DNA of 38,479 nt from an uncultured Candidatus Saccharibacteria bacterium (GCA_937996675.1 CALKUN010000033.1:1-38479); one strand, 5' to 3'; counted from the stretch's first letter, positions 6,070-28,383 are shown. Program-made: numbers and translations. The notes: generated from the letters alone by a model not told the origin.

Positions 6070-6125
6070 TTAATCGTCCTGAGCAAGACATTAAACGGCT
6101 CTATTTTTAATTTAAGGAGATTTCT

Positions 6126-6446: not shown

Positions 6447-6476
6447 TATGTAGTCCTGAGTATGACCTCAAACTGC

Positions 6477-7247: not shown

Positions 7248-7470
7248 GTTTATGTTCTCCTTTACTATACTTTAGTATAAAGAGAGATAAAGTAAATAGA
7301 GTATATTTGTATCTGTTAATTAATGACTTTTTACCCCGTATGCATATGGGGTAAATTTTACTATAGAAATATGGTAATTAGTATTGCTTTTTATTTTAAT
7401 TAGTAATACTATTTATATAGAGATTGTACGTTAACAATTCGGCTAATTGAGGGTAGAATAAGGGGTAATT
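7248..7470. promoter_or_regulatory. AT-rich divergent control region with several palindromes and direct repeats
   Basis: Palindrome TATACT-TT-AGTATA lies at 7266-7279. TTTACTATA occurs at 7261 and 7357. TAATTAGTA occurs twice, near 7376 and 7399. TTACCCC-N10-GGGGTAA lies at 7331-7354. Confidence 0.45.
7331..7354. repeat. inverted repeat TTACCCC-N10-GGGGTAA
   Basis: Read directly from the sequence. Its right arm plus flank (GGGGTAAATT) recurs at 9669-9678. Confidence 0.8.
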
Positions 7471-7623
7471 ATGGTTGATAGAGAAGTCCTAGAAAAACAA
7501 GCATTAGAAGAAGTTTGCGCGTGTTTGTATTACGACCTAGCGGACAATATCGATATAGAATCAGACGATACATTGCTTGCAATTACAGAGCATACGATAG
7601 TATGTGATATCTGCGGAAAATAG
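7471..7623 (+). CDS. possible 50-aa ORF (below the ORF-track cutoff)
   Basis: ATG preceded by AAGGGGTAATT. It translates to MVDREVLEKQALEEVCACLYYDLADNIDIESDDTLLAITEHTIVCDICGK with a TAG stop at 7621. There is no other support. Confidence 0.3.
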   Translation: MVDREVLEKQALEEVCACLYYDLADNIDIESDDTLLAITEHTIVCDICGK

Positions 7624-7656
7624 AAAAAAGCAACACTATGCGTTAAAATAGGGCTG

Positions 7657-7860
7657 ATGTCCAGAAAGATTGTAAACATGCAAGTTAAGGTTTCGGAAGC
7701 GGTCAAAGACCGTGCTAAAGCCGTAGCCAAGGCTAATGGCAAAACTCTGAGCGAACTTGTTCTGAAGTTACTGGCAAATGCCGGCGATAAAGAACTAAAG
7801 TCTCTAGTAGAGCAGGAATTAAAAGAACGACCAAAGCCAGGACGACCCTGGGATAAATAA
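7657..7860 (+). CDS. ribbon-helix-helix (CopG/Arc-like) DNA-binding protein
   Basis: KIVNMQVKVSEAVKDRAKAVAKANGKTLSELVLKLLANA fits the beta-strand/helix/helix RHH pattern. Confidence 0.55.
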   Translation: MSRKIVNMQVKVSEAVKDRAKAVAKANGKTLSELVLKLLANAGDKELKSLVEQELKERPKPGRPWDK

Positions 7861-7925
7861 TCTCTAGTTAGTCGAATTGTTAACGCACTGATCTCCAGTG
7901 TGTTTTTTATGTTCGGAGGGTAATT

Positions 7926-8144
7926 ATGGACATATTCGAAAATCAGGAGCCAGAAGAAGTAGTCTCGGATTTTTGCATTCCAAACGAGAAGAAGATTGAG
8001 CTGTTACGATCAATTCTTGAGACTGAATCAGAATCTTCTGTGACATTCAGGGACGCAGAAGAAGTTGCACGCCGACTTGTTTCGTTCTATGAGTCTCTTG
8101 CTGGAGATAGAAAAATAATTCCTGGGCTGCAAGATGAAAGCTAA
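7926..8144 (+). CDS. small acidic hypothetical protein, overlaps the recombinase start (possible directionality or accessory factor)
   Basis: A GGAGGG RBS lies upstream. It overlaps the recombinase gene by 11 nt. Confidence 0.5.
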   Translation: MDIFENQEPEEVVSDFCIPNEKKIELLRSILETESESSVTFRDAEEVARRLVSFYESLAGDRKIIPGLQDES

Positions 8145-9633
8145 CGATAGTAAGGCTGTAATTCTTGCAAGAGTATCGTCAAAAGGACAGGAAGATGAAG
8201 GTTATTCACTAGACTCACAAATCAAATTACTTAAAAACTACGCTGAGAGTAAAGAACTCTGGGTAGCAGAAACATTTAAGATTACTGAAACAGCCTCCAA
8301 GTCATCACAGAGAAAAATTTTTAAGTTAGCAATGAAATATATTGCCGACCATGATATCAAGCACCTCATTATTGAGAAGGTGGATCGACATGTAAGAAAT
8401 TTGCATGATGCGGTAGAAACTCACGATTGGCTTGTTGCAGACGAGCATCGCCACGTCCACTTCGTGAAAGATAGTCTAATCATGCACAAAAACTCGCGAT
8501 CTCAAGAATGGCTAAACTGGGGCATACGCGTTGTAATGGCGAAGAACTATATTGATAACTTGCGCGAAGAAGCTATGAAGGGTTGGGCCGAGAAACTTGC
8601 CCAAGGATGGCTTCCAGCACCACCTCCGCCCGGATATCATACAGTCGTAAAAGATGGAAAACGAATCCATGAACCAAATCCGAAAACGTACCGAACCATG
8701 CAGAAAGCTTTTAAGCATTACCTGAGTCCGAGCGGAAGTATTGATTCAGTTGCCGAGCTAATGACTAAGTCGGGAATAGTAACACGCGGCGGACGTCCGT
8801 ATGCAAAAAGCGCAGTTCATAGACAGTTAAGTAATCCATTCTATATAGGTATAAACTTTTTTGATGGCAAGAGTTACCCAGGCAAGCAAACACCACTCAT
8901 TACTAAACGTATGTTTGATAAGGTTCAGGAAAAACTCCATGGCAAACGCAACCCTAAACAAAGACTACATAATCCTTTGTTTAAAAACATGATTGTTTGC
9001 GGTCACTGCAATAAGGTTGTTACTTGGCAAAAGCAGAAAGGCAAATACTACGGAGCGTGCCAGCGAGATCTACCTGAATGTAAACAAGAGAAATATTTGC
9101 GCGAGTCAGTCATACAAGAACAAGTGATAGACATGCTTGACGACCTGATAAGTCCATCTCAAATGGTAATTGCTTGGCTGACAGACCTTCTGAAGTCAGA
9201 TTTTAAATTGCAGTTAAGTGACACAGAGCAAGCTAAAGCTAATATCGAACATCGCATAGCTAAGATTAAGCGCATGGATGAGATGCTTTACGACGACAAG
9301 TTGAATGGCGATATATCGACCGACCGTTATCGTGAGAAACACGAGGCGTTTATGAGTGAAATTAAAGAGCTCAGTGAGCAGAAAGGAGGCATGAGTCAAG
9401 ACTACGAGGAGAGGTATATGGAAGGTATTACATTAATAGAGCTTACACAGTCAGCAAAACAGCAGTTTATTGACGATGAAGTCGAGGTCGACGAAAAACG
9501 AACTATTTTAACCGAACTTTTCGAAAAAATGGTACTTAAAGACGGATTTGTATCTGTTAAATACACTAAGCTAGCACAAGCAATAGCACGTAAAAGTGCT
9601 CAATCAAGGGAGATTTTAGCATATGGCAAATAA
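8134..9633 (+). CDS. large serine recombinase (integrase type)
   Basis: The N-terminal resolvase catalytic motif is AVILARVSSKGQ...GYSLDSQ. A recombinase domain follows, then a Cys-rich zinc-ribbon segment (CGHCNK...GACQ...C) and a C-terminal coiled-coil-like region. Confidence 0.9.
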   Translation: MKANDSKAVILARVSSKGQEDEGYSLDSQIKLLKNYAESKELWVAETFKITETASKSSQRKIFKLAMKYIADHDIKHLIIEKVDRHVRNLHDAVETHDWLVADEHRHVHFVKDSLIMHKNSRSQEWLNWGIRVVMAKNYIDNLREEAMKGWAEKLAQGWLPAPPPPGYHTVVKDGKRIHEPNPKTYRTMQKAFKHYLSPSGSIDSVAELMTKSGIVTRGGRPYAKSAVHRQLSNPFYIGINFFDGKSYPGKQTPLITKRMFDKVQEKLHGKRNPKQRLHNPLFKNMIVCGHCNKVVTWQKQKGKYYGACQRDLPECKQEKYLRESVIQEQVIDMLDDLISPSQMVIAWLTDLLKSDFKLQLSDTEQAKANIEHRIAKIKRMDEMLYDDKLNGDISTDRYREKHEAFMSEIKELSEQKGGMSQDYEERYMEGITLIELTQSAKQQFIDDEVEVDEKRTILTELFEKMVLKDGFVSVKYTKLAQAIARKSAQSREILAYGK

Positions 9634-9654
9634 CGTTAACCGAACCAATAAAAA

Positions 9655-9674
9655 TACCCCAAACAACAGGGGTA
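9655..9674. repeat. inverted repeat TACCCC-N8-GGGGTA between recombinase stop and tRNA
   Basis: Read directly from the sequence. It shares GGGGTAAATT with the 7331-7357 palindrome. Confidence 0.8.
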
Positions 9675-9715
9675 AATTAACTGAAAAAGAAAAATTTTTG
9701 CTTCTTCGTTCTGTT

Positions 9716-9792
9716 TGGCAGGGGTGGAGGGACTCGAACCCACGGCCTTTGGTTTTGGAGACCAACGCTCTAGCCAACTGAGCTACACCCCT
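9716..9792 (-). tRNA. trnW: tRNA-Trp (anticodon CCA), CCA end encoded
   Basis: The reverse complement folds by hand into a cloverleaf. The acceptor stem AGGGGTG/CACCCCT has 7 bp. The D arm is GCTC/GAGC. The anticodon stem is TTGGT/ACCAA with loop CTCCAAA. The T arm is GTGGG-TTCGAGT-CCCTC with one U-U mismatch. The discriminator is G, followed by CCA. Confidence 0.9.
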
Positions 9793-9879
9793 GTAGAACC
9801 TCATAATTATAGCAAACATTGATAAATCCGAAGAATGTAGCGAAAATTCATAGACTTTGATAGGATAAGCATAATCATT

Positions 9880-10392
9880 ATGAACCGCCAGATATCCCAG
9901 CCAGATAGCTCTCGTCGAGGATTTACCCTCATCGAAATCGTTATTGTCCTCGCAATCGCAGCGATCATTATCGTCGTAGTATTCCTAGCTGTTACCGGCG
10001 CCCAGAAATCAAGCCGAGATAATGAACGAAAAGCCTACGCTCGGTTACTATACACGGCTGTCTATACTTTTATGGGGAATAATGGGGGAAGTACGGCGGC
10101 CCTTGATACAGCAACCTTACTAGACTACGTAGGCAGGAATAAAAAAGTGCTTGGACAATCTGTCGTCGCAGTAGACTTGGATGCACCTGATGGGGGCGGG
10201 CTACCGGATGGAGTCAGCGTAACATTTAGGAATGGGGCGCTAGATACAGATCCTGTCACCGAGAATGGTGACGCCTGCACGGTATTAGGTGCGAACTATG
10301 CTTGGTTTAACGTAGCGATTCCTCAAAACTCGAGCGCTCCAAGTGTGGGCGTCTGTCTAGAAACCTCCCAAACCTACTTTGTTACGAAGTAA
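9880..10392 (+). CDS. type IV pilin-like / pseudopilin protein
   Basis: It has the prepilin cleavage/methylation motif RRGFTLIEIVIVLAIAAIIIVVVF after a short basic leader. Confidence 0.8.
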   Translation: MNRQISQPDSSRRGFTLIEIVIVLAIAAIIIVVVFLAVTGAQKSSRDNERKAYARLLYTAVYTFMGNNGGSTAALDTATLLDYVGRNKKVLGQSVVAVDLDAPDGGGLPDGVSVTFRNGALDTDPVTENGDACTVLGANYAWFNVAIPQNSSAPSVGVCLETSQTYFVTK

Positions 10393-11865: not shown

Positions 11866-12043
11866 AGTGCCAATGCTAGAGCTAAACTATTTAGTAATGA
11901 GTAAGTAGGTAACATATCTAACCCAGCTGAACCCACAGGAGGTGGTGTCGCTGGCGATTTTTTTCTACTCAGCCATGTAGCCAAGGCAGCCCAAAAAAAA
12001 AGTAATTATTAGCACGATCTTTATGTTCGAAAGGAAACCAAAA

Positions 12044-13801
12044 ATGCCCTCAGCAAGCAAGACAACACAAAAATCCTCAGCCAAGGCAGCACCGCAGACG
12101 GCTTTCCGAAAGTGGGGCAAGCTCGTAGTCATCGCTCTTGCGGTCGCAATTATTATCATCGACACGACACTCCTCAACGTCAGTCTTCGTAACATCGTCG
12201 AAGACCTAAACTCAAACTTTACCGACATTCAGTGGGTCATCACTCTGTACACACTCGTTCTCTCGGCCTTCACGATTACGGGTGGTCGTCTCGGTGACCT
12301 CTATGGTCGCAAGAAGATGTTCATGCTCGGTGCAGTCCTGTTCGCGATCGGTAGCTTCGTCGCATCCATTTCTCACAACATCGGCATGCTCCTCGTAGGG
12401 GAGTCAATCGTCGAAGGCATCGGCGCAGCTCTCATGATGCCGGCAGCTGCTTCACTCATCCTGACAAACTACGAGGGTAAGGATCGTGCTGTTGCCTTTG
12501 CAATCTTCGGTGCGATCGCCGGTGCGTCCAGTGCATTGGGGCCGATTCTCGGTGGCTGGCTCACCAGCTCATTCTCATGGCGTTGGGGCTTCCGTATCAA
12601 CATCGCAGTCGTTATCGTTCTCTTGATCGGCTCTGCACTCATTAAGGAGAGTAAGGACCTCGGCGAGAAGAAAGAGCTCGACCTTGTTGGCGTCGGACTC
12701 ACTTCTGTCGGTCTGCTTTCGCTAGTCTTCGGTATTATCGAAAGCTCAAGCTATGGCTGGTGGCGCGCACTCAAGCCATGGACACTCGGCAGCTTTACCT
12801 TCGACTTCTTCGGCCTCTCGATCACACCTGTAGCTATTGGACTTGGACTTCTTTTGCTCGGTATCTTCGTCTGGGATCAACTCCGTCGAGAAGCCAAGGG
12901 ACACACTCCACTCGTCAGTATGCGTATGTTCAAGAACCGCCAGTTCGTCAGCGGTATGCTCGTCAACACCGCACTCTCGCTCACTATGACTGGTCTGATC
13001 TTCGTCTTCCCAATCTACTACCAGTCAGTCCACGGACTGGATGCCTTCCACACCGGCCTGTCCCTCTTCCCGTTGTCCCTCACGGTCTTCATCATCTCGC
13101 CACTATCGCTCTTCATCGCACGCAAGGCTCGCCCGAAGACAATGATCATCGCTGGGCTCGTCCTCACATCTCTCGCACTTCTCACTATGATCTTCATGCT
13201 CAAGCCTGACTCACCAGCCTCAGTGCTCCTCCCAGGTCTGGTCCTGTTCGGAGCGGGTATGGGCCTCATCTTCAGCCAAGTAAACAACCTCGCACTCTCA
13301 GCCGTCAGTGCAGACCTCGCCGGAGAAGCCAGTGGAGTAAACAACACTATGCGTCAGGTCGGAGCTAGCTTCGGAGCCGCCATCATAGGCGCTGCACTCT
13401 TCACGAGTATTGCCGGTACGATTACCGCAAATATCCAGTCAGACATACAGATCCCAGATCGCGTAAAGCCCCAGATCATCGAGCAGGCTAAGACTGCCGC
13501 ACAAGATGGTGGCATGAGTAGCAACAGCGACAAGCAAGAGCTTCCTCAAGAGGTAAAGACCCTCCTTCAAAACGCCCCAGCCTCACAACGAACGATGATC
13601 ATCGACACCTACCAGAGACAGCAGCAGAAGATTGGCGCCGCTGTGAAGACCGATGTGAAGAACGGCATCACCGAGTCGATCAAGAATACTCTCTGGATTG
13701 CGTTCGGCTTCAGTGTTCTGAGTATCGTAGCTGGCTTCAGCATCCCGAACATCGAGTCTATGATGAAGGATGGACCAGCCAAGGCACCGACCGTTCATTA
13801 A
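12044..13801 (+). CDS. MFS transporter, DHA2 (EmrB/QacA-like, 14-TMS) family
   Basis: MFS motif A is GGRLGDLYGRKKMF. There are about 14 hydrophobic segments and a hydrophilic insert before the last helix. The ATG at 12044 has AAAGGAAA upstream, and the ORF-track start at 12023 is the alternative. Confidence 0.85.
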   Translation: MPSASKTTQKSSAKAAPQTAFRKWGKLVVIALAVAIIIIDTTLLNVSLRNIVEDLNSNFTDIQWVITLYTLVLSAFTITGGRLGDLYGRKKMFMLGAVLFAIGSFVASISHNIGMLLVGESIVEGIGAALMMPAAASLILTNYEGKDRAVAFAIFGAIAGASSALGPILGGWLTSSFSWRWGFRINIAVVIVLLIGSALIKESKDLGEKKELDLVGVGLTSVGLLSLVFGIIESSSYGWWRALKPWTLGSFTFDFFGLSITPVAIGLGLLLLGIFVWDQLRREAKGHTPLVSMRMFKNRQFVSGMLVNTALSLTMTGLIFVFPIYYQSVHGLDAFHTGLSLFPLSLTVFIISPLSLFIARKARPKTMIIAGLVLTSLALLTMIFMLKPDSPASVLLPGLVLFGAGMGLIFSQVNNLALSAVSADLAGEASGVNNTMRQVGASFGAAIIGAALFTSIAGTITANIQSDIQIPDRVKPQIIEQAKTAAQDGGMSSNSDKQELPQEVKTLLQNAPASQRTMIIDTYQRQQQKIGAAVKTDVKNGITESIKNTLWIAFGFSVLSIVAGFSIPNIESMMKDGPAKAPTVH

Positions 13802-13854
13802 GAATCGTATGATTCTTCACACACTTCTCGCCTCAAACATGGTACGGTAACCAT

Positions 13855-14076
13855 ATGAGACTCGTTTTCAAACATATCAAACGCGGTGTTGTCCTACTCG
13901 TAGGCAGCACCGTTCTGATTATCGGCGCCCTGATGATCGTACTCCCAGGGCCGGGCATCCCAGTGCTCATCGTCGGCTTTGCGATACTCGCGACCGAGTT
14001 TGTGTGGGCCGAGCGAATAGTTGAGCGACTACGTAAGTACTGGGATGAGACTATCGCACGGCTGAAGAAATCATAA
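13855..14076 (+). CDS. PGPGW-motif small membrane protein
   Basis: It has two hydrophobic helices with LPGPGIPVLIVGFAILATEFVWAER. Confidence 0.65.
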   Translation: MRLVFKHIKRGVVLLVGSTVLIIGALMIVLPGPGIPVLIVGFAILATEFVWAERIVERLRKYWDETIARLKKS

Positions 14077-14195: not shown

Positions 14196-14225
14196 TTGAC
14201 GAAAAGTTTTATCGACCTGTATACC
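14196..14225 (+). promoter_or_regulatory. candidate sigma70-type promoter for the peptide/ABC operon
   Basis: TTGACG-18 nt-TATACC with an A-rich tract upstream, 33 nt before the GTG at 14258. Confidence 0.3.
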
Positions 14226-14257
14226 TGGGCTATCACTAATTCAGGGAGGGATACATC

Positions 14258-14452
14258 GTGAACGGGTTGATCACATTAGATGACACAGCGCAATACGCAA
14301 CTAAAGAAGTAGCCATACTCGTCGTAGCGGCTGCTTTTGTCATTTCACTAGCTGGAGTTGCTGCTGCTGCCTACATCATCTGTGGCTGGAAGGGTGCTAA
14401 AAACGTCGTAATGGATTTTGTGCACGGTAAAGCAACGTTTGTCTGCCGGTAA
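14258..14452 (+). CDS. 64-aa hydrophobic peptide (candidate precursor, immunity or substrate peptide)
   Basis: A GTG start lies 7 nt after AGGGAGGG. The peptide has an acidic 17-aa N-terminus, a 27-aa Ala/Val/Ile core (VAILVVAAAFVISLAGVAAAAYIICGW) and a basic 20-aa tail with a second Cys. Its stop lies 12 nt before the next start. Confidence 0.55.
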   Translation: MNGLITLDDTAQYATKEVAILVVAAAFVISLAGVAAAAYIICGWKGAKNVVMDFVHGKATFVCR

Positions 14453-14464
14453 AGGAGTAGCAGG

Positions 14465-15298
14465 GTGCTCATACTCAGTAATCATGACACTATCGAGCTA
14501 GGCTACGGCTACACTATTGAATCAACGCACCTGGTTGATTCAATAGTGGCCGCACGGCATAAGCTCGATAGTCGCATCGTGAATATACTGCGGAGCCTCA
14601 AGCTGCAACCGATGGCCTACCGCGATCTTGTCGGTAAGCTTGAAGAACAAGAGATAGATAGAGCACAAGGGGAAGGCCTTATTCTTACGCTGAATTCAAT
14701 AGGTGCTTTGAAGATACGGCGCAGAATAGGAGCAGTCAAAGAGCGAGCCATGCTTACTACTCGTGCCCTTCTTCTTCATCGAAAGATAACTGCGGTCCAG
14801 CAGAGAGACCGGACCAACTTTTACTCGCTCGTCCTGGCACTCAGTAGGGCGACAGGATTCCTGCTCTTGCTCTGGTGTTTTGCATGCAGTCTGGTCGTCG
14901 CAATCGGGACTATTTCAATGTCATACTTTATTGCACTCAGTGTCGGTGCTTACGTCACGCTTTTGATAAGTCTTATTTGCCACGAATACGCGCACGTGAT
15001 GATATTAGGGGAAGCCAAGAAAACATCAGCCATCGTTCGTAATGGCTGGAGAATTGGCATACTTCACGAGCAGCAATCCGCTCAAAGGGAGCTATTTTCT
15101 GCAGTATTGGGACCACTGGCCGGCGCGTTAACTGCGCTCGGTCTATGCACTCTGCTGCATACCATCACTCATGAGCCCGTATGGCTGGCTATTGGTTGGG
15201 TTTTTGTTGGCTGCCACTTCCTGAGTCTCCTGCCGAGCTTCGGTGATGGCTGGACAATCGTACGAGCATTTGAGAAAGGAGCCGCACGTGATATTTGA
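14465..15298 (+). CDS. membrane metalloprotease, M50 (site-2 protease)-like, with an N-terminal PqqD/RRE-like cytoplasmic domain
   Basis: A GTG start lies 7 nt after AAAGGAG. HEYAH sits inside a hydrophobic helix (LICHEYAHVMILG), and a downstream LLPSFGDGW resembles the M50 NxxPxxxLDG motif. The N-terminal ~110 aa (HKLDSRIVNILRSLKLQPMAYRDLVGKLEEQEIDRAQGEGLILTLNSIGAL) fits a PqqD-like winged-helix pattern by eye. Confidence 0.7.
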   Translation: MLILSNHDTIELGYGYTIESTHLVDSIVAARHKLDSRIVNILRSLKLQPMAYRDLVGKLEEQEIDRAQGEGLILTLNSIGALKIRRRIGAVKERAMLTTRALLLHRKITAVQQRDRTNFYSLVLALSRATGFLLLLWCFACSLVVAIGTISMSYFIALSVGAYVTLLISLICHEYAHVMILGEAKKTSAIVRNGWRIGILHEQQSAQRELFSAVLGPLAGALTALGLCTLLHTITHEPVWLAIGWVFVGCHFLSLLPSFGDGWTIVRAFEKGAARDI

Positions 15299-16013
15299 AG
15301 TAGAGCAGCTCAAGTATCATCATTCGTCAACCTTTCAGCTTGAGGTTGAGCGAATGACAGTATCTGCAGGAGAACTCATATGTATAGTTGGCCCAAATGG
15401 AAGTGGCAAAACAACCTTCCTCAATAATCTAAGTGGCATAACGCTCCCGCAGCATGGACGCGTCAGTCTGATGGGAATTCCAATGAGCCCTAACCTAGCG
15501 CTCATCAAGCGTAATCTAGGATACATCCCTGATGATGACAACTGGTTTGTGTCCGAGCTAACGGCTCGTGAATACTTAGTACTCCTTGAAAAAGTCTACG
15601 CCAAGGCTGGATGCTACGTGAACATGCATCGACGCGCAAAACAATTAGCTCAGGCTCTAAAATTCATACTTTGGGACCAGCCACTCATGACGCTCAGTCA
15701 CGGCAATAAGCGAAAGGTGCAAATCATAGCCGGGCTCATGCATCAGCCAAAAGGTATTATTATTGACGAGCTCAGAAATGGCCTTGATCCACTCGCAGTT
15801 ATTGCCGCTGAACACATTATTCTTGAAGAAGTAGAACGCGGAGCGGCGGTTATTACAGCCTCCCACGATCTATGGTGGGCTGAACGATTGGCCCAAAAAA
15901 TCATTCTCCTCAACGAGGGTAAGATTGCCCATGAGCTCATTCCCGACCAGCTACGCAAGAAAGGGAAGTCGGTTGAATCAATATTTATCGAGATGGTGGA
16001 GCAGACAGCATGA
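15288..16013 (+). CDS. ABC transporter ATP-binding protein
   Basis: Walker A is GPNGSGKTT, the signature is LSHGNKRKV and Walker B is IIIDE. The GTG at 15288 lies 7 nt after AAAGGAG, so it is preferred over the ORF-track start at 15243. Confidence 0.9.
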   Translation: MIFEVEQLKYHHSSTFQLEVERMTVSAGELICIVGPNGSGKTTFLNNLSGITLPQHGRVSLMGIPMSPNLALIKRNLGYIPDDDNWFVSELTAREYLVLLEKVYAKAGCYVNMHRRAKQLAQALKFILWDQPLMTLSHGNKRKVQIIAGLMHQPKGIIIDELRNGLDPLAVIAAEHIILEEVERGAAVITASHDLWWAERLAQKIILLNEGKIAHELIPDQLRKKGKSVESIFIEMVEQTA

Positions 16014-17377
16014 CGTCAACTTTATTCTCGGCTGTTATCGTCCATACCTTTGGTCGAAATTCGCTACGCCCGCAGAAAACAGCCTGGCGGCGTCTACTAT
16101 TTGCCATAGGGATCGCTACTGTGCTTGATGTCATCGTCACCGGTAGCCTCAGTACATTGCAATTGCCGTCGGACCTCTTTCAAAGCTGGGTAGCAATCAT
16201 GCTCATTCTCACGATTCAAATTGTAGTTGGGCTTATTATGTTGATTGTCCGAGCTAGTGGCTATGGCCTACACGATGATCAGATAAATGACATACTTAGT
16301 GTGATGCCAGTGTCAGAGTTGAGCCGTTGGGTCATCGCCCTTGTGCCCGGGCTAGTGGTTGTAGGGCTGCTGTACATCGTTACGATTGGACCGCTCATTA
16401 TCATAGCGAGCACTCTTCACTTGCCGTTATATCTCTGTATCTTGAGTATTATCATAGGCACACTCTCAGGCATCGGGCTGGGTACATACCAACCTCACAC
16501 TTCCATAGCTCTAAACTTCTTGCTTATGGCCCTCCTCGTTGCCGCTGAGCTGCAGCTGCTTGAGCGCATCATGACAACTTACCAGATTTACCAAAACCCA
16601 TTTCTTGTTGGTTTCGCAACACTCTTAGTACTCATAGTCATTCCGTTTTATTGGCTGGCTCGTAGCGTGCAGACATGGTCACACGCTCGACAGCGCAAGT
16701 CGACAGCAGTCTATTCTTTTAGTATATTCCCGATCGGTGTAAATACATGGCTGGCGCACAAGGTGACACGGCACCCCAAGATAATCCGTTCTGCGGTTGT
16801 GCTGACCGGAATCAGCAACCTGCTCACATACATGTGGCTTCAATCGAGTAATGGTGGCGATCCAGATATGTCCATAATCATTATTGGATTATCATTTATA
16901 GCTTCACTCGCTACATCGGATATTCGCGGACTCACTCGATCGGAAGCCGCACCTGAAATAATTATGGTCCGAGGTAGTCTGTTCTTTGTGATACAACAGA
17001 TCTGCACAGGATTAATACTCAGCACCATTGTCACAGCACCGATCTGGCTTAGTCTGGTCATATCCCACAGCCATCATCCGACCATGCTTCTAGCAATCCT
17101 AGGTCAATTAGCGCTCGGCAGCACAACCGCACTCCTGACGAGCACACTCTTCGTACCGAGTCAGCAAGATGTTTCAGCTGAATTCTTCAGCGCCACAATT
17201 AGTGCCTGTCTTATTATTGCTTTAGAAAAAATCTCGACATCACTCAAGCTTGCCACAACACTGCAAGCTAAATCCATCATTTGGATTATTACCGCAAATA
17301 TCATTGCGATATGCATCTTCAGTGTCGAGCGGCGACGTAATAACTATTATTGGAAGGGGATCAATACCTATGCATAA
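16010..17377 (+). CDS. polytopic membrane protein, putative ABC permease partner (455 aa)
   Basis: It has an ATGA overlap with the ATPase gene and about 10-12 hydrophobic segments. No family was recognised. Confidence 0.7.
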   Translation: MTSTLFSAVIVHTFGRNSLRPQKTAWRRLLFAIGIATVLDVIVTGSLSTLQLPSDLFQSWVAIMLILTIQIVVGLIMLIVRASGYGLHDDQINDILSVMPVSELSRWVIALVPGLVVVGLLYIVTIGPLIIIASTLHLPLYLCILSIIIGTLSGIGLGTYQPHTSIALNFLLMALLVAAELQLLERIMTTYQIYQNPFLVGFATLLVLIVIPFYWLARSVQTWSHARQRKSTAVYSFSIFPIGVNTWLAHKVTRHPKIIRSAVVLTGISNLLTYMWLQSSNGGDPDMSIIIIGLSFIASLATSDIRGLTRSEAAPEIIMVRGSLFFVIQQICTGLILSTIVTAPIWLSLVISHSHHPTMLLAILGQLALGSTTALLTSTLFVPSQQDVSAEFFSATISACLIIALEKISTSLKLATTLQAKSIIWIITANIIAICIFSVERRRNNYYWKGINTYA

Positions 17378-17687
17378 CAATTCAACTGCGCAAAAGAGCA
17401 TTGGACAATGGCTCGCTGCAGTATTTTCTGGTGGAGCCGCGTTGTTTTTCATCATATTTCTTGCACAAGCTTCGAGCCTATCGAGTACGACCGAAACAAC
17501 AAAACGCATAGTCGGACTTGGGCCGCTTCATTTTCTGCAGATTACGAAAAGCATCGATGGAGCTGGGACAAGTGCAAGCTTTGAATTCTTGCCAGGAATA
17601 ATCGGGTACATTATTGTCTTAGCGCTCCTCACCGGTGCTGGAGTTTGGTACAGCCTACGTCGCACCCAGACTGTTTCTGCAGAATAA
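17370..17687 (+). CDS. small two-helix membrane protein (105 aa)
   Basis: The ATG at 17370 has GGAAGGGGA upstream and overlaps the permease stop by 8 nt. The longer ORF-track form (17250) lies inside the permease gene. Confidence 0.5.
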   Translation: MHNNSTAQKSIGQWLAAVFSGGAALFFIIFLAQASSLSSTTETTKRIVGLGPLHFLQITKSIDGAGTSASFEFLPGIIGYIIVLALLTGAGVWYSLRRTQTVSAE

Positions 17688-17715: not shown

Positions 17716-18534
17716 ATGAGCATTCCCGAAAAGTTCCATCGCTGGCTACGCATACCGTACACACTCCACATCGAACGTCGCGGGAAGCGGGGACCACTCG
17801 TGATTTTCCTCCACGGGCTCGCATCCCGCGGAGATATCTGGGACGAGACTGCTGCTGAGTTGATGCGCAGTTATCGCTGTGTGCAAGTCGATCTCCTCGG
17901 GCATGGAGCCAGCCCTAAGCCGACCAAGCTCCTGTATGACACGGCCGATCACGAGCGTAGCCTCGCCTGGACACTCTTCTGGCGAGGGCTGTGGGGTAAG
18001 AAGATATTTGTGACCCACTCAATGGGTGGACTCGTCGCACTCCGGTACGCGTCGCTGCATCCTAGGAGCGTCAAACGAATGGTGCTAGTCGGACTCCCAG
18101 TCTATCGTCGGGCCGAGGCAAAGGACGAAGCTCGCAAGTTTGAGGCTACGCTCGACAAGGGTTTTCTCGTGTTCTATCGAGCCATGCGCGCCTTGCCGAA
18201 GTCTGCAGCTATTCGCTCGGCAAAGGCGCTCATGCGTGCCTTGCCGCGTCTCGTCGGATCTACCTATCTGGATGAAGAGACCTGGTACCCAGCCGTATCA
18301 TCACTGGCGCACACTATCGAGCTCCAGACTGCCCTGGCCGACCTCGACAAGATACCAGGTGACCTTAAGATCACACTCATTTATGGTCGCCTCGACCAGC
18401 TCGTCTTGTCTCGCAACCTCAAGCTCGTCAAAAAGAACCACCCCAGTACAAAGCTCGTACCAATCGTCACATATCACGAGATCAGTCCCAAGACTGTACG
18501 GCCTATCGTGCGAGCTGTGAAGCAACACTTCTGA
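17716..18534 (+). CDS. alpha/beta-fold hydrolase
   Basis: The oxyanion region is VIFLHGL and the nucleophile elbow is THSMGG. A His lies near the C-terminus (TYHEI). Confidence 0.8.
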   Translation: MSIPEKFHRWLRIPYTLHIERRGKRGPLVIFLHGLASRGDIWDETAAELMRSYRCVQVDLLGHGASPKPTKLLYDTADHERSLAWTLFWRGLWGKKIFVTHSMGGLVALRYASLHPRSVKRMVLVGLPVYRRAEAKDEARKFEATLDKGFLVFYRAMRALPKSAAIRSAKALMRALPRLVGSTYLDEETWYPAVSSLAHTIELQTALADLDKIPGDLKITLIYGRLDQLVLSRNLKLVKKNHPSTKLVPIVTYHEISPKTVRPIVRAVKQHF

Positions 18535-18547: not shown

Positions 18548-18946
18548 CTAGCCAGTGACTAGACCGTGAAACGGTGGAATGGGACGAAGGTGAGTAGGGA
18601 CTCGGTGAAAGATACTCTGGCTGTACTGCAGTGTCGCGTAGTAGGCCTGAGCGACAATCACGAAGTGAGCCTGTTCCTCTGTTAATGCTTGGAGCTGAGG
18701 AAAATCCTTTGCGAGGCCCGCAAAGCTCCCGCGGTACTCCTGCAGGTAGAAATCATTGTGCCGACGGATACGACGCTCCAGCTGCCAGCGCCAAATCACT
18801 AACTGCCGCGAGTGAATCATGCGTCGGGTCGAGATATCTTCCGCTAGCCGGCGTCGCAGTATGACCAGCCCGCTGGCCGGAGAGTTCAGAGCGAAGTCGA
18901 TCTCGCCATAGGTGGCGTTGATGCCCAGTAAGAAGTGGGGATCCAT
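18548..18946 (-). CDS. hypothetical protein (132 aa)
   Basis: The ATG at 18946 (MDPHFLL...) is preceded by AGGAGG. The ORF-track start at 18979 is the alternative. Confidence 0.5.
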   Translation of the reverse strand: MDPHFLLGINATYGEIDFALNSPASGLVILRRRLAEDISTRRMIHSRQLVIWRWQLERRIRRHNDFYLQEYRGSFAGLAKDFPQLQALTEEQAHFVIVAQAYYATLQYSQSIFHRVPTHLRPIPPFHGLVTG

Positions 18947-19094
18947 GGTCCTCCTGGTACAAGGCAGACTTTCTGCCATAGTGAAACTACTATAGACGCT
19001 CTACGCGCACTTTCATAGCAAAATACTCCTCGAGTACATGCTAAAATAGCCGTATGCATATTCAGGGATATCGACCGACGAGCTACTCACCAAT

Positions 19095-21448: not shown

Positions 21449-22423
21449 ATGAAGTTCTTGCGATTCTTTACTCAGCTCCTCCTGGCTGCCTCACTCACTA
21501 CCCTCATTGTGAGCTATTCACTCCTCCAGCTCGTCGCTACTGGCACCGGTATGAGTGATACGCTCAATAAAAGCGGGATCTACGATATGGTCGCAGCTGA
21601 AGCCCGGAAGGGACTTGGTTCGTCACCAAAAGTACCAGCTAAGTACCAGGAACTCTTCACGACCAGCCTCAACAAAGCTATTGATACCGCGCAGATCGAA
21701 GCCATGCTCAAGCCTGCTATCGTCGATATTGCGGCCTGGCTCAATCAGCCCGACGACACGCCACCGCCAGATGTCGTAATTGTGATCAAGCCTGCAAAAG
21801 ATGCGCTCATCAAAGAACTCAGCGACGGGGGACTGAGTGGCTTAGAGCTCACTGCGCTGCAGATGCAACTCAGCCAGCAAGTGCCTGATCAGCTGCGTCT
21901 ATCCAGCCTAGGCGACCTACTCGGTGAGTCAGACAGTGGTGATGCTTCGGGAGCGAATTCAAACACAGCCAAGCCGCAAACCACCACGAGTCAAAGCGAT
22001 GCCGTAGTCGAAGGCCTCAAGAACCTGAAATCCGGCGTGTCAGCCCTCCGGCTCGCATTCATGATTAGTATCGGCGCAACCGCGTTATTCAGCCTTCTCG
22101 TTATTCTCATGAGCCGCAAGTTGGGTCGATCGGCCTTCAAGGCGGTATCGATGAGCTACCTGTCCGAAGGCGGCCTCTGGCTAGCTCTTGGACTTATTGT
22201 ACCGGCTGTATTCCACCCAGCCACAGATGCTGTCACAGAGTCAACTATCGCCATGCACTTGGCTCCTGTCTTTATAGCCCGCGTACTCAGTGCCTCACTT
22301 CTCCCAGCCGGTATCATCGTACTCATTGGCGCGATTGGGCTCGCCATTACGCTCCTGCGTCGCCCGAAGACCCCCGCAGCTACAGCACCAGTCCAGCCTC
22401 TCGCTGCACCACCTCGTCGCTAG
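21449..22423 (+). CDS. hypothetical membrane protein
   Basis: The ATG at 21449 gives a signal-anchor-like N-terminus (MKFLRFFTQLLLAASLTTLIV). It has C-terminal hydrophobic helices and a Pro/Ala tail. Confidence 0.6.
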   Translation: MKFLRFFTQLLLAASLTTLIVSYSLLQLVATGTGMSDTLNKSGIYDMVAAEARKGLGSSPKVPAKYQELFTTSLNKAIDTAQIEAMLKPAIVDIAAWLNQPDDTPPPDVVIVIKPAKDALIKELSDGGLSGLELTALQMQLSQQVPDQLRLSSLGDLLGESDSGDASGANSNTAKPQTTTSQSDAVVEGLKNLKSGVSALRLAFMISIGATALFSLLVILMSRKLGRSAFKAVSMSYLSEGGLWLALGLIVPAVFHPATDAVTESTIAMHLAPVFIARVLSASLLPAGIIVLIGAIGLAITLLRRPKTPAATAPVQPLAAPPRR

Positions 22424-24486
22424 ACGACGAGCTCAGTACGTGTCTGCCACCGAGGTTTGAAGAGCTCGTAATGAAGCATAGAAGCGATCAGGACACCCAT
22501 AATAAATACATTCGTAAACGGTGCCAGTATCTGAGCGGGCAAGTTCTGACGCGTTTCGAGGGCTACGATCCAACGAGTAATAAGGTGAGCTACGATCACG
22601 ATGACCGCGAGTAGCGCGTGAATGTTCTGGCCGCTTAAGATATCCCAGATCAAGATTAGCGACGGGAGAGTAAAAACAAACAAGCCTCCCAACGTCAGGA
22701 ACCAAACAATCGGGAAGTGATAGTTCAGGGCCGGATAGTAACGCTGTATATCGTCTTCGAGGATAGCTTGGATACCCTGGTGATTTTGTGAGGTCGCAAG
22801 GTCACTGGCTCGGTAGAGTTGAGCCTTGAGCCCGAGGTTACGAGCTCGACGGAAGAGCTCCTGATCTTCCAGAGGACTGGCTCGAACCTCTGAGAAACCG
22901 CCAATCTCACGAATAGGATGCACCGCAAAGGCCGTAATGCCACCTTGAGCAGATGAGCGTTCGGGGGCATGAGCCTGCAAGTATGCAGCCGGGTAGGCCG
23001 ATAGCAGGAGGTATTGATTGTGACTCAAGATCGTCTTCTGAGCCAGTGATTTGTTTTGGTCTGACGGCAGAAGCGAGAGGAAGTGGACGTGCTTTTCTTC
23101 CATGAGTGAAGCAATCTGCGCCAGGGCGTTTGGCAGCAATACAGTGTCAGCCGAGACGAGTACAGCATATTCGCCAGTGGCTTTTTTGAGGAGCTGATCG
23201 CTAGCCCAAGCATTCACACTCCAACCAGCCTCGATAGGCGCAATACTCACTCGCTTGAAGCGCTTATCAGAGTACGAGTCGGCGATACTGACAGTATTGT
23301 CGTCCGAGCCCAAGTCAGTCAGGAGAATCTCAAAGTCTGGATAGTCCTGGCCAAGCGAAGCCAAGATGGTGCTAGCGATATTGTCAGCTTGGTTGTAGCT
23401 ATGGATCAAGATACTCATACGAGGCCACTCCTCGAGCCGCTTGGTGGTCGGGCGGCGAAAAGCCGTCAGATTGTATCCAATGAGTGCAAATTGCAAGATG
23501 CTAAAGCACAGGCAGAAGAGGAGGATATTGTCGATGCGGGATGGGCCGAGCTGGAGAGGGTCAAACACATACAGGAGGAGCTGGGTGAGCCAGAAACCGA
23601 CGAAGCCGTTCAGCCACAGAAAGTTGGTCCAAGCCCGCCGGAACAGCTTGGACTGAGCATCGGAGGTGTACTTGAGGAAGAAGGCTGCGTTGAGCACATA
23701 GGGCAGTAAGAGAAATGCGGCCGCCAAAGACACCGGCCAGGCTATCAGTGCCGTGAGGATACAGCTCAACACATACAGCACAAATGAGAAGCGGAGCGTT
23801 TTTCGGGCACCCCACATCGTAGCAATAGATCGGATCTTACCAGCTCGGTCAGGCTTGATGTCCTGAATCGCCCCCAGCGCATGACTAGCCATGCCCCATG
23901 CGAAGAAAGCCACTGCAACCATCCAGGCGACCTCACCCTTGGGGCTCACGAGCCAGCCAAATACTGCCGGCCCAACAAAATGGCAGGCTGAATTGATCGA
24001 GTCTAGGATCGGAATCTCCTTAAAGCGCAAACCTTTAACAGAATACGACAGCGCAAGGGCGATTAATGCACCAAGGGTCCAGCGCCCCACTACTGACGTG
24101 AGCGGCCATAAGGCACCCAAGCTAATGATGAGGATGAGGATGATCGCTATCCAGAACATCCGCCGACGATCTGGAGCCACCAAGCTACCCTCGAGGCCAC
24201 CCTTGCGAGGGTTTTTGATATCCGACTCATAGTCGAAAATGTCATTTACTCCATACATGAGCAGATTGTAGGGAAGAAGGAAGAATATTGTACTCAGTAT
24301 AAAGAAAGCATTGATTTGGCCGCCACTCGTTAGGAAAGCAGCCATAAATGGAATGGCAGTATTCGCCCAGCTGACTGGACGACTAGCGGCGAGTATTTCG
24401 CGTACGACGTCGAGGGCGCTGTGACTTGGTGTGTCTACGTGGCGGTGGCGTTTTGGCGGGTGTGGCGATGTGTTGAGTTGATTCAT
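22420..24486 (-). CDS. fusion protein: UbiA-family prenyltransferase (lycopene-elongase-like) + family-2 glycosyltransferase with C-terminal TM helices
   Basis: The N-terminal half has the UbiA Asp-rich motif NDIFDYESDIKNPRK within multiple TM helices. The C-terminal half has GT-A motifs (MSILIHSYNQADNI...DYPDFEILLTDLGSDDNT, VSADT, LEDQELFRRA). The start is taken as MNQLN at 24486, though the frame is open to 24552. Confidence 0.8.
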   Translation of the reverse strand: MNQLNTSPHPPKRHRHVDTPSHSALDVVREILAASRPVSWANTAIPFMAAFLTSGGQINAFFILSTIFFLLPYNLLMYGVNDIFDYESDIKNPRKGGLEGSLVAPDRRRMFWIAIILILIISLGALWPLTSVVGRWTLGALIALALSYSVKGLRFKEIPILDSINSACHFVGPAVFGWLVSPKGEVAWMVAVAFFAWGMASHALGAIQDIKPDRAGKIRSIATMWGARKTLRFSFVLYVLSCILTALIAWPVSLAAAFLLLPYVLNAAFFLKYTSDAQSKLFRRAWTNFLWLNGFVGFWLTQLLLYVFDPLQLGPSRIDNILLFCLCFSILQFALIGYNLTAFRRPTTKRLEEWPRMSILIHSYNQADNIASTILASLGQDYPDFEILLTDLGSDDNTVSIADSYSDKRFKRVSIAPIEAGWSVNAWASDQLLKKATGEYAVLVSADTVLLPNALAQIASLMEEKHVHFLSLLPSDQNKSLAQKTILSHNQYLLLSAYPAAYLQAHAPERSSAQGGITAFAVHPIREIGGFSEVRASPLEDQELFRRARNLGLKAQLYRASDLATSQNHQGIQAILEDDIQRYYPALNYHFPIVWFLTLGGLFVFTLPSLILIWDILSGQNIHALLAVIVIVAHLITRWIVALETRQNLPAQILAPFTNVFIMGVLIASMLHYELFKPRWQTRTELVV

Positions 24487-25149: not shown

Positions 25150-25254
25150 GTATTAATGATACCAGTTCAAGCCGCGACATGATTGGTCTATTGCAAATCT
25201 TCAATATCAGTGTTTTAATAATTCACACACTTTGTACCGACAGATGGAGTAGCC

Positions 25255-25752: not shown

Positions 25753-25762
25753 GGACCCTTCC

Positions 25763-25794: not shown

Positions 25795-25822
25795 AAGTCA
25801 TTTTACCTATATACTAATAAGC

Positions 25823-28382: not shown

Positions 28383-28383
28383 T

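What the first reader, a model, noticed from the sequence alone, without database searches (positions are those of the whole stretch)
14196..17687. Candidate undescribed peptide maturation/export cassette: small hydrophobic peptide, RRE-like/M50 protease fusion, ABC ATPase, orphan permease and small membrane protein
Five co-directional genes are packed with gaps or overlaps of 12, -11, -4 and -8 nt behind one promoter-like site. Both the 64-aa peptide ORF and the next gene have strong SD sequences at ideal spacing. That next gene combines a putative peptide-recognition (PqqD/RRE-like) domain with an intramembrane zinc protease signature (HEYAH in a helix plus an LLPSFGDG motif). An ABC ATPase and a 455-aa polytopic protein of no family I recognise follow. 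This is the logic of a RiPP or bacteriocin locus (substrate, recognition and processing, export or immunity). It does not match the canonical lanthipeptide, lasso, sactipeptide, circular-bacteriocin or lactococcin-972 layouts that I know. The alpha/beta hydrolase 29 nt downstream (17716-18534) may belong to it.
Basis: partly seen in the sequence, partly recalled or inferred. Interest (0 to 1): 0.8.

Follow-up and report, generated by a model that had tools for sequence, protein, structure and literature searches.

The report
Conserved Saccharibacteria peptide-processing and export operon
A five-gene operon found in many Saccharibacteria (tiny bacteria that live on other bacteria) encodes a highly conserved 64-residue membrane peptide, a membrane protease fused to a peptide-recognition domain, and an ABC transporter, so it most likely cuts and exports that peptide, whose role is unknown.

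Summary
Genes at 14258-17687 form a tight five-gene unit: a 64-aa peptide, a 277-aa protein, an ABC ATPase, a 455-aa polytopic protein and a 105-aa two-helix protein.

The 277-aa protein folds confidently (pLDDT 88.8). It is an N-terminal RRE-type winged helix joined to a minimal site-2-protease (M50) core. HExxH and PxxxDG are invariant or nearly so in 153 diverged relatives, and the family profile hits the M. jannaschii S2P structure at E=9e-9.

The gene order was the same in all 33 related loci I fetched, as far as each contig reached. All named relatives are Saccharibacteria or Patescibacteria MAGs annotated "hypothetical protein".

The peptide is as conserved as the ATPase and about twice as conserved as the protease. 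It carries an invariant CGW[KR]G motif and a C-terminal Cys-Arg/Lys.

The alpha/beta hydrolase does not belong: no other locus has it.

The architecture has precedents: daptide clusters (RRE-S2P fusion plus DrrA-type ABC) and epeXEPAB. This cassette has no tailoring enzyme and fails their family models.

Best reading: RRE-guided intramembrane cleavage of the peptide, then ABC extraction or export. Cleavage, the recognised end of the peptide, and the product's role are inferred, not shown.

It is a new variant of a known kind.

The parts
14196..14225 (+). Promoter-like site: TTGACG, 18-nt spacer, TATACC
   Evidence: Read. Not listed by the consensus scan because the -10 hexamer lacks the final T. 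TTGACG and TGTATA are conserved in relatives L005 and L006 while the flanks diverge. Function is inferred.
14244..14250 (+). Shine-Dalgarno GGGAGGG, 7 nt before the peptide start codon
   Evidence: Sequence; the GGG core is conserved in L005 and L006.
14258..14452 (+). 64-aa precursor-like peptide. It has an acidic N-terminal 17 aa ([LM][IV]xxD..Y..KE), a 24-aa hydrophobic helix, an invariant CGW[KR]G, and a basic 20-aa tail ending in Cys-Arg.
   Evidence: ORF. 65 homologous clusters, all 63-65 aa in core length. C42, G43, W44, G46 and C63 are invariant; Y13, E17, A37, D53, T60, F61 and R64 are at least 90% conserved. One copy per locus in all 34 sequences.
14465..14815 (+). RRE-type winged-helix domain (aa 1-117) of the 277-aa fusion protein, plus a K/R-rich linker. 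Predicted to be cytoplasmic.
   Evidence: AF2 pLDDT is about 90 over this part, with four strands, three helices and one strand. Foldseek hits the RRE regions of MadB, TbtB, MibB, NisB, McbB, TbiB1, CteB and PbtF. D8 and D25 are invariant; L12, H32, R86 and R114 are at least 90% conserved. K+R is enriched in the linker.
14816..15298 (+). Minimal site-2-protease (M50-like) core: four TM helices plus a beta-hairpin. HEYAH lies at aa 173-177 (nt 14981-14995) and D261-G262 at nt 15245-15250.
   Evidence: Foldseek top hit is 3b4r_A, the M. jannaschii S2P (E 8.8e-3, probability 1.0), followed by SpoIVFB 8vjl. The family profile against PDB gives 3b4r at E=9e-9 and aligns HExxH and PxxxDG. Motif conservation is 152-153 of 153. 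57 of 127 relatives weakly hit PF02163.
15288..16013 (+). ABC ATPase of the DrrA / ABC-2 type
   Evidence: PF00005 at 8.6e-23. Best NCBIfam hit is TIGR01188 drrA at 5.8e-32, followed by GldA, and further down the list galliderm_ABC and PmtA. The start is supported by relatives. Present in every locus long enough to reach it.
16010..17377 (+). 455-aa polytopic membrane protein, presumed to be the transporter's membrane subunit. About 12 hydrophobic segments and a K/R-rich loop at aa 212-266.
   Evidence: ATGA overlap with the ATPase stop. No Pfam, NCBIfam or PDB sequence match. Conserved in position in every locus that extends that far, at about 20% identity. Hydropathy and charge. The AF2 model is unreliable (pLDDT 42).
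17370..17687 (+). 105-aa protein with two TM helices and a loop of roughly 50 aa between them carrying a G-P-L-x-[LF] motif
   Evidence: 8-nt overlap with the permease gene. Homologues follow the permease in all 19 related loci that reach that far. Alignment. No family match.

Best explanation
The five genes form one operon dedicated to a single, highly conserved 64-aa hydrophobic peptide.

The 277-aa protein is a zinc intramembrane protease of the site-2-protease (M50) type. Its cytoplasmic N-terminus is a RiPP-recognition-element (RRE) domain.

Proposed mechanism:
1. The RRE captures the peptide. The most likely handle is the acidic N-terminal segment ([LM][IV]xxD..Y..KE), used as a leader.
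2. The RRE presents the adjoining hydrophobic helix to the H173/E174/H177/D261 site at the cytoplasmic face of the membrane.
3. The protease cuts off the leader.
4. The remaining hydrophobic helix and basic tail, with the two invariant cysteines C42 and C63, is pulled out of the membrane and exported by the DrrA-type ABC ATPase, the 455-aa permease and the 105-aa accessory protein. The transporter may also protect the producer from the product.

Shown by computation: operon structure, fold and catalytic motifs of the protease, topology by charge, strict gene order, and strong purifying selection on the peptide.

Inferred: that the peptide is the substrate, where it is cut, which end the RRE reads, export, and disulfide formation.

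Because the cassette is single-copy, widespread in Saccharibacteria and carries one nearly unchanging peptide, its product is more likely a lineage-wide envelope, signalling or host-interaction factor than a variable bacteriocin.
For: - Operon: overlaps of -11, -4 and -8 nt, a 12-nt gap, and two strong SD sites.
- Protease fold: AF2 pLDDT 88.8, pTM 0.77. Foldseek gives mjS2P, SpoIVFB and many RRE domains.
- Sequence link to S2P: the family profile hits 3b4r at E=9e-9, aligning HExxH and PxxxDG.
- Catalytic motifs: conserved in 152-153 of 153 representatives that share under 50% identity with one another.
- Closest curated models: the weak best NCBIfam matches among relatives are the daptide intramembrane metalloprotease, the YydH/LiaK epipeptide protease, RseP and PqqD-type models.
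- Topology: K/R enrichment places the RRE, the hairpin loop and the C-terminus on the cytoplasmic side, so the active site faces the cytoplasm as in known S2Ps.
- Synteny: peptide, protease, ATPase, permease and small protein keep the same order in all 33 loci as far as the contigs reach; 20 of 20 peptide-seeded loci have the protease next.
- Peptide conservation: mean pairwise identity 0.51, against 0.29 for the protease, 0.26 for the permease, 0.27 for the small protein and 0.53 for the ATPase.
- Substrate features: conserved mid-helix G32-S/G33. That S2P substrates need helix-destabilising residues is from my own knowledge.
- Precedents: RRE-fused S2P leader peptidases with DrrA-type ABC genes in daptide clusters (PMC10036551), and the M50 protease EpeP in epeXEPAB (PMC10885120).
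Against: - There is no direct evidence of cleavage or export.
- I could not model the peptide-protease complex.
- The peptide's charge distribution (N-terminus -1.8, C-tail +3.3) predicts an N-out/C-in orientation if it inserts on its own. That would put the presumed leader on the opposite side of the membrane from the cytoplasmic RRE.
- The RRE's invariant residues are acidic (D8, D25), which would suit the basic C-tail better than the acidic N-terminus.
- Conservation along the whole peptide is unusual for a leader/core precursor.
- No modification enzyme is present.
- The permease has no recognisable ABC-permease family or fold.
- The window protein itself does not reach any M50 or PqqD family threshold.
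Confidence: 0.6

Rival explanations
1. Same machinery, opposite polarity. The peptide first inserts N-out/C-in, as its charges predict. The cytoplasmic RRE then reads the basic C-terminal tail (VxxDWxHxKATFxCR) as a follower. The protease cuts at the invariant CGW[KR]G at the cytoplasmic membrane boundary. The acidic N-terminus plus helix is then expelled by the ABC transporter, while the tail stays inside.
For: - N-terminus net -1.8 and C-tail net +3.3 across 66 peptides.
- The most invariant peptide residues (C42, G43, W44, G46) lie exactly at the C-terminal end of the hydrophobic stretch.
- The active site and the RRE are both on the cytoplasmic side.
- The invariant RRE residues D8 and D25 are acidic, and the tail has invariably basic positions 45, 58 and 64.
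Against: - Known S2P substrates are N-in, and known RRE-protease systems read N-terminal leaders (own knowledge; PMC10036551).
- A reversed chain direction in a zincin active site would need the tail to loop back.
- The N-terminal motif (D8 89%, Y13 92%, E17 98%) is also strongly conserved, which would be left unexplained.
Confidence: 0.2
2. The peptide is cleaved as in the main model, but the ABC ATPase, permease and small protein are not a dedicated exporter. They either protect the producer (immunity, as proposed for EpeAB and LanFEG-type pumps) or clear cleaved hydrophobic remnants so the protease can keep working (as proposed for EcsAB with RasP).
For: - The ATPase belongs to the DrrA/ABC-2 group, which includes lantibiotic-protection and PSM-export ATPases.
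- The role of ABC transporters in daptide clusters is still open and resistance has been suggested (PMC12749797).
- EpeP has been suggested to both cleave and export its product (PMC10885120).
- The EcsAB-RasP link is from my own knowledge.
Against: - No other exporter is encoded in the conserved cassette.
- Strict 1:1 coupling with overlapping genes fits a single pathway.
- The permease matches no immunity-pump family; the single LacI-type immunity hit, in 1 of 14 members at E=0.18, is noise.
Confidence: 0.2
3. The peptide is not a protease substrate. It is a stoichiometric small subunit or regulator of a membrane complex, for example an ABC transporter for some other substrate. The RRE-protease would then act as its docking or quality-control partner.
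For: - The peptide is conserved along its whole length and as strongly as the ATPase, as expected for a structural subunit.
- One copy per locus.
- No tailoring enzymes.
- The cassette is widespread and chromosomal, with varied neighbours.
Against: - Invariant catalytic residues show that the protease is active on something.
- In every characterised case known to me, RRE domains bind a co-encoded short peptide.
- First position in the operon with a strong SD is typical of a precursor gene.
Confidence: 0.12

Closest known systems
Daptide biosynthetic gene clusters: the DapP/MpaP RRE-site-2-protease fusion with DrrA-type ABC transporters (Ren et al. 2023, PMC10036551)
   Same: Both have an N-terminal RRE fused to an intramembrane HExxH metalloprotease. 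Both have short co-encoded precursors with a conserved acidic N-terminal motif, an aliphatic-rich middle and an invariant C-terminus. Both have TIGR01188/TIGR03740/TIGR03522-type ABC ATPases. The daptide protease model is the NCBIfam family that most relatives touch, though only weakly.
   Different: This cassette has no DapB (DUF-RRE), oxidoreductase, aminotransferase or methyltransferase. The peptide ends in Cys-Arg/Lys rather than Thr. There is one precursor per locus rather than about 2.3. The window protein does not hit NF041824 or PF02163. The host lineage is Patescibacteria, not Actinomycetota or Bacillota. The precursor is far more conserved.
Epipeptide operon epeXEPAB (yydFGHIJ) of Bacillus subtilis (PMC10885120, PMC12871923)
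   Same: The gene logic and order match: peptide, membrane M50 protease, ABC ATPase, ABC permease. EpeP is an intramembrane M50 enzyme that matures a small peptide.
   Different: This cassette has no radical-SAM epimerase. As far as I know, EpeP has no fused RRE. Only 8 of 127 relatives touch the YydH/LiaK model, at E of 0.018 or worse. The permease is unrelated at the sequence level and roughly twice as long (size comparison from my own knowledge).
Eep/RseP-type site-2 proteases working with the PptAB (EcsAB-type) ABC exporter for hydrophobic peptide pheromones (PMC4173765, PMC5167397)
   Same: An S2P cuts a small hydrophobic precursor in the membrane, and an ABC-2-type transporter releases the hydrophobic product.
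   Different: Those genes are unlinked housekeeping genes. Those proteases carry PDZ domains and no RRE (own knowledge). Their products are 7-8-mers from signal-peptide-like precursors. The permease family here showed no match to any Pfam model.
Solved site-2 proteases: M. jannaschii S2P (3b4r) and SpoIVFB (8vjl)
   Same: The core fold matches. HExxH lies in one TM helix, and Asp of the PxxxDG motif is the third ligand in another.
   Different: This enzyme has only four TM helices, no CBS or PDZ domain, an RRE instead, and about 20% identity.

Membership tests
Site-2 protease / peptidase family M50 | HExxH zinc-binding motif inside a transmembrane helix | tested here: met
   HEYAH at aa 173-177, within predicted helix 152-181. 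H173 in 152/153, E174 in 153/153, H177 in 153/153.
Site-2 protease / peptidase family M50 | Second motif (N/H)xxPxxxxDG, supplying the Asp ligand from another membrane segment | tested here: met
   H251-x2-S-x-L-P257-x-[YF]-G-D261-G262. P257, D261 and G262 are each 153/153. The motif aligns to the IPAFPmDG of 3b4r.
Site-2 protease / peptidase family M50 | Sequence match to the curated family model (PF02163) above its threshold | tested here: not met
   The window protein has no hit at E<=1. 57 of 127 relatives hit only weakly (best 1.8e-4). The family profile nevertheless hits the 3b4r sequence at E=9e-9, so this is a distant homologue rather than a model-defined member.
Site-2 protease / peptidase family M50 | S2P core fold | tested here: met
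   Foldseek top hit is 3b4r_A (E 8.8e-3, probability 1.0, 141 columns); 8vjl_A SpoIVFB is rank 6. No hit reached E<=0.001 for the two-domain query.
Site-2 protease / peptidase family M50 | Zinc-dependent intramembrane proteolysis of a substrate | not testable with these tools
   Needs biochemistry.
RiPP recognition element (PqqD-like winged helix) | Three-stranded sheet followed by three helices (strands before helices, unlike DNA-binding winged helices) | tested here: met
   DSSP of the model: strands 9-12, 16-19, 22-25 and 30-33, then helices 36-47, 52-61 and 66-78. Foldseek returns the RRE regions of MadB, TbtB, MibB, NisB, McbB, TbiB1, CteB and PbtF with rmsd 2.4-4.1 A over 76-91 columns (6.9 A over 113 columns for TbtB).
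RiPP recognition element (PqqD-like winged helix) | Sequence match to PqqD/RRE models | tested here: not met
   No PF05402 hit. Only 4 of 127 relatives touch PqqD-type NCBIfam models, at E of 0.003-0.019.
RiPP recognition element (PqqD-like winged helix) | Binds the leader of a co-encoded precursor peptide | not testable with these tools
The conserved residues D25, H32 and L76 lie on the strands and helix that form the groove in known RREs (inference).
Daptide biosynthetic cluster | Precursor with an invariant C-terminal Thr that is converted to an amine | tested here: not met
   The C-terminus is Cys-Arg or Cys-Lys in 66/66 peptides.
Daptide biosynthetic cluster | DUF-RRE (DapB), oxidative decarboxylase, aminotransferase and methyltransferase genes | tested here: not met
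   None within the cassette or its flanks in the window. None among the called genes of the related loci.
Daptide biosynthetic cluster | RRE-fused intramembrane metalloprotease (NF041824 model) | tested here: inconclusive
   The architecture is the same. The window protein has no hit, and 11 of 127 relatives hit at E of 0.0014 or worse, well below a trusted level. No DapP sequence was available for a direct profile comparison.
Epipeptide (epeXEPAB / yydFGHIJ) cluster | Radical-SAM epimerase acting on the precursor | tested here: not met
   No radical-SAM gene in the window cassette or in any related locus.
ABC transporter (ATPase subunit) | Walker A, signature and Walker B motifs, plus a match to PF00005 | tested here: met
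   PF00005 at 8.6e-23; TIGR01188 at 5.8e-32. GPNGSGKT, LSHGNKRK and IIIDEL are visible in the translation.
ABC transporter (membrane subunit) for the 455-aa protein | Recognisable ABC permease family or fold | tested here: inconclusive
   No Pfam, NCBIfam or PDB sequence match. The AF2 model has pLDDT 42. No internal repeat was detected. The assignment rests on translational coupling to the ATPase and on strict co-occurrence.

The most novel reading that the evidence does not exclude
The peptide is neither an antibiotic nor a classical RiPP. It is a core, lineage-defining factor of Saccharibacteria. In this reading it is matured by RRE-guided intramembrane proteolysis with no other modification, then delivered to the cell surface or into the host membrane, for example as a disulfide-stapled anchor, a pore or a signal needed for the epibiotic lifestyle. 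That would make this the first RRE working outside a tailoring pathway, together with a new ABC permease family.
Probability: 0.25. Interest if true: 0.85.

Novelty: new variant of a known kind. Interest (0 to 1): 0.6.

Why it matters
Saccharibacteria are abundant, small-genome bacteria that live attached to other bacteria. Most of their conserved lineage-specific genes have no known role.

This five-gene operon is kept in the same order across hundreds of diverged lineages. Every part is annotated "hypothetical", and the peptide at its centre barely changes. Such conservation implies an important function.

The operon also extends RRE-fused intramembrane proteases, so far known from daptide antibiotic clusters in Actinomycetota and Bacillota, to Patescibacteria and to a context with no tailoring enzymes. 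That bears on how RRE-guided proteolysis evolved and on whether RREs serve simple leader-cleaved peptides.

The hypothesis is directly testable by heterologous expression with mass spectrometry. It could also be tested genetically in cultivable Saccharibacteria, if they carry the cassette.

Tried and rejected
- Complex modelling of peptide with protease. The read-through translation was rejected because of the stop codon.
- Permease structure. Only four close homologues were available for the alignment. The model had pLDDT 42 and was not used for fold search.
- Permease family. Pfam, NCBIfam and a profile search against PDB gave nothing. hhalign of the N-terminal half against the C-terminal half found no internal repeat.
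- Anti-phage defence reading. PADLOC gave only generic P-loop hits for the ATPase. Rejected.
- Alpha/beta hydrolase as a cassette member. It is absent from all 33 related loci. Rejected.
- Direct comparison with a daptide DapP sequence. No sequence is held in the paper's supplements. tblastn against plasmids found nothing relevant. The hominicin cluster uses a serine protease.
- First word-based homologue search. It found only 5 clusters and so suggested a very rare family. The exhaustive profile search corrected this to 414 representatives.
- Literature. I found no description of this cassette in Saccharibacteria or Patescibacteria in the held library.
- Lipobox reading of I-I-C-G. Rejected because position -1 is a bulky residue (own knowledge).
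- Zn-site reading of C42/D53/H56/C63. Weakened because H56 is only 71% conserved.

Full report
OBSERVATION

The region 14196-17687 holds five co-directional ORFs: 14258-14452 (64 aa), 14465-15298 (277 aa), 15288-16013 (241 aa), 16010-17377 (455 aa) and 17370-17687 (105 aa). They are separated by +12, -11, -4 and -8 nt. GGGAGGG lies 7 nt before the first start codon and AAGGAG lies 7 nt before the second.

The promoter-like TTGACG-18-TATACC at 14196-14225 does not pass the consensus scan. Its two hexamer regions are nevertheless conserved in the two closest relatives while the surrounding sequence diverges. The 15288 start of the ATPase matches the N-termini of close relatives.

WHAT THE GENES ARE

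The ATPase is an ordinary DrrA/ABC-2-type ABC ATPase (PF00005 8.6e-23; TIGR01188 5.8e-32). The other four products match no Pfam or NCBIfam model.

The 277-aa protein was modelled from a five-sequence alignment with high confidence (pLDDT 88.8, pTM 0.77). Residues 1-85 form four strands, three helices and one more strand. Four long helices and a beta-hairpin follow.

A Foldseek search against the PDB gave the M. jannaschii site-2 protease as top hit (3b4r_A, E 8.8e-3, probability 1.0) and SpoIVFB at rank 6. For the N-terminal part it returned a run of RRE-containing RiPP enzymes: MadB, TbtB, MibB, NisB, McbB, TbiB1, CteB and PbtF. No hit reached E<=0.001 for this two-domain query.

Sequence evidence is independent of the model. 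A profile of 127 family members hits the 3b4r sequence at E=9e-9 and aligns HExxH with HELGH and LLPxYGDG with IPAFPmDG. 57 of 127 members weakly touch PF02163. The NCBIfam models most often touched are the daptide intramembrane metalloprotease, the YydH/LiaK epipeptide protease, RseP and PqqD-type chaperones, all far below trusted scores.

In 153 representatives that share under 50% identity with one another, H173 is present in 152, and E174, H177, P257, D261 and G262 in all 153. The single exception is YEYSH in P0002.

Lys and Arg are concentrated in the RRE-TM linker, the hairpin loop and the C-terminus, while the other two loops are tiny and uncharged. So the RRE and the active site face the cytoplasm, as in known site-2 proteases.

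CONSERVATION AND SYNTENY

A first word-based search found only five clusters. The exhaustive profile search found 414 representatives at E<=1e-3 and 171 at E<=1e-30. Most of the best 150 listed are 260-300 aa (range 211-303).

The peptide family has 65 clusters at 90% identity, all with a 63-65-aa core. Every named member comes from Candidatus Saccharibacteria or Patescibacteria MAGs and is called "hypothetical protein".

I collected 33 related loci:
- 13 through protease or peptide relatives in public assemblies and one GTDB genome;
- 20 from a metagenome scan seeded on the peptide motif.

In every one the order peptide, protease, ATPase, permease, small protein is kept as far as the contig reaches. 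All 20 peptide-seeded loci have the protease immediately downstream. There is exactly one peptide gene per locus.

Flanking genes vary. FolD and murein genes are common neighbours elsewhere. An MFS pump and a PGPGW protein precede the cassette in the window and its two closest relatives. The alpha/beta hydrolase at 17716-18534 occurs next to the cassette only in the window and is not part of it.

THE PEPTIDE

Mean pairwise identity across loci is 0.51 for the peptide and 0.53 for the ATPase. It is 0.29 for the protease, 0.26 for the permease and 0.27 for the small protein.

The consensus is MxxxLIxADxSxxYxxKE-AAxIVxALAWVIAxGSVAxAAIII-CGWKGAKxVxxDWxHxKATFxCR. C42, G43, W44, G46 and C63 are invariant. 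Y13, E17, A37, A47, V50, D53, T60, F61 and R64 are at least 90% conserved. Position 64 is always Arg or Lys.

The N-terminal 17 residues are net acidic (mean -1.8) and the C-terminal tail is net basic (mean +3.3). A conserved G32-S/G33 pair sits in the middle of the helix.

TRANSPORTER PARTS

The 455-aa protein has about 12 hydrophobic segments, K/R-rich N- and C-termini and a large K/R-rich loop at aa 212-266. Its conserved motifs are W..K..R, DxRG, PPE and TLFVP. It has no family, no PDB sequence relative and no detectable internal repeat. The structure prediction failed (pLDDT 42).

Its role as the membrane subunit of the ATPase is inferred from the ATGA start/stop overlap and from strict co-occurrence.

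The 105-aa protein has two helices flanking a loop with a conserved GPL motif.

MECHANISM

Best-supported model, at confidence 0.6 for the overall logic:
1. The cytoplasmic RRE captures the peptide.
2. The fused zinc protease cuts it at the cytoplasmic face of the membrane.
3. The ABC system extracts or exports the hydrophobic product.

By analogy with daptide and epipeptide precursors, the acidic N-terminal segment is the more likely leader. The mature product would then be the helix plus the basic tail, whose two invariant cysteines could form a disulfide outside the cell.

The main unresolved point is polarity. The charge pattern predicts N-out/C-in insertion, and the invariant RRE residues D8 and D25 are acidic. 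A follower-type recognition of the basic tail, with cleavage at the invariant CGW[KR]G, therefore remains a serious rival (0.2).

Other rivals:
- The ABC system serves immunity or remnant clearance rather than export (0.2).
- The peptide is a structural subunit rather than a substrate (0.12).

Nothing here shows antimicrobial activity. The wide distribution, single copy and slow evolution of the peptide fit a lineage-wide role better than a strain-level weapon.

COMPARISON WITH KNOWN SYSTEMS

The closest known system is the daptide cluster. [quoted passage not shown] It has short precursors carrying an acidic N-terminal motif, an aliphatic middle and an invariant C-terminal residue, and DrrA-type ABC ATPases are among the most frequent co-occurring genes (PMC10028931 / PMC10036551).

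The present cassette works like that protease-export module but is not a daptide cluster:
- its C-terminus is Cys-Arg, not Thr;
- it has none of the four tailoring enzymes;
- it fails the daptide protease model.

epeXEPAB shares the order peptide, M50 protease, ABC, but it has a radical-SAM epimerase (PMC10885120; PMC12871923).

Eep with PptAB shares the idea of an S2P plus an ABC exporter for hydrophobic peptides, but those genes are unlinked (PMC4173765, PMC5167397). That those proteases carry no RRE is from my own knowledge.

I found no paper describing this cassette.

VERDICT

This is a real, strongly conserved operon.

Caveats:
- the architecture has precedents;
- the hydrolase does not belong;
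- the label "RiPP/bacteriocin" is unproven.

It is a new variant of a known kind, with a new peptide family, a new divergent M50 subfamily, an unclassified permease and a new host lineage. Interest 0.6.

Noticed in passing
window 1-9800: A low-GC segment (0.35-0.44, against about 0.52 elsewhere) ends with a large serine recombinase (8134-9633; phrog_95 integrase, 4e-64) beside tRNA-Trp (9716-9792, minus strand). It also holds a dCMP-deaminase-like gene (1625-2107), a replication-O-like gene (6477-7247, minus strand) and a 955-aa protein with no family (2705-5572). It is probably an integrated mobile element or prophage remnant.
   Followed up: partly
window 22420-30634: A carotenoid-type isoprenoid cluster: a UbiA prenyltransferase-GT2 fusion (22420-24552, minus strand), a lycopene cyclase domain (24383-24952, minus strand), an amine-oxidase/phytoene-desaturase type enzyme (25823-27316), a polyprenyl synthase (27291-28382), a phytoene/squalene synthase (28384-29277) and a 459-aa protein with no family (29255-30634). 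This is unexpected for a reduced Patescibacteria-type genome.
   Followed up: partly
window 9880-10392: A 170-aa protein with a type IV pilin N-terminal methylation motif (PF07963, 4.6e-8) lies just after the tRNA-Trp. In locus L012 a type IV pilus gene set lies a few kb upstream of the cassette.
   Followed up: no
L001, L004, L007, L008, L010, L012 flanks: In other Saccharibacteria loci the cassette often sits just after folD and within a few kb of murein genes: Mur ligase, Glu racemase, MurL, Ala racemase, S66 LD-carboxypeptidase and YkuD transpeptidase. The window lacks this neighbourhood. It may be plain chromosomal synteny or a hint of an envelope role.
   Followed up: partly
P0002 (locus L006 2989-3819): This 62%-identical relative has YEYSH instead of HExxH. 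It is the only exception among 153 family members. It could be a sequencing error or an inactivated copy.
   Followed up: no
window 12023-14076: A DHA2-type MFS efflux pump (TIGR00711, 2.4e-73) and a 73-aa PGPGW membrane protein precede the cassette. The same pair precedes it in L006, and the PGPGW gene precedes it in L005, but not in more distant loci.
   Followed up: partly
window 18548-18979 (minus strand): A 143-aa ORF with no family match converges on the hydrolase gene. A strong terminator-like hairpin (12 pairs plus a T-run) lies at 18568-18542.
   Followed up: no
window 36534-36682 and 34615-36419: A ribosomal L10 leader (RF00557, 55.9 bits) lies upstream of the L10 and L7/L12 genes. 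Next to it, on the minus strand, are thymidylate synthase and a DHFR-HIT fusion ORF.
   Followed up: no
L016 9489-10205: One relative carries a second, different ABC ATPase directly after the five-gene cassette.
   Followed up: no
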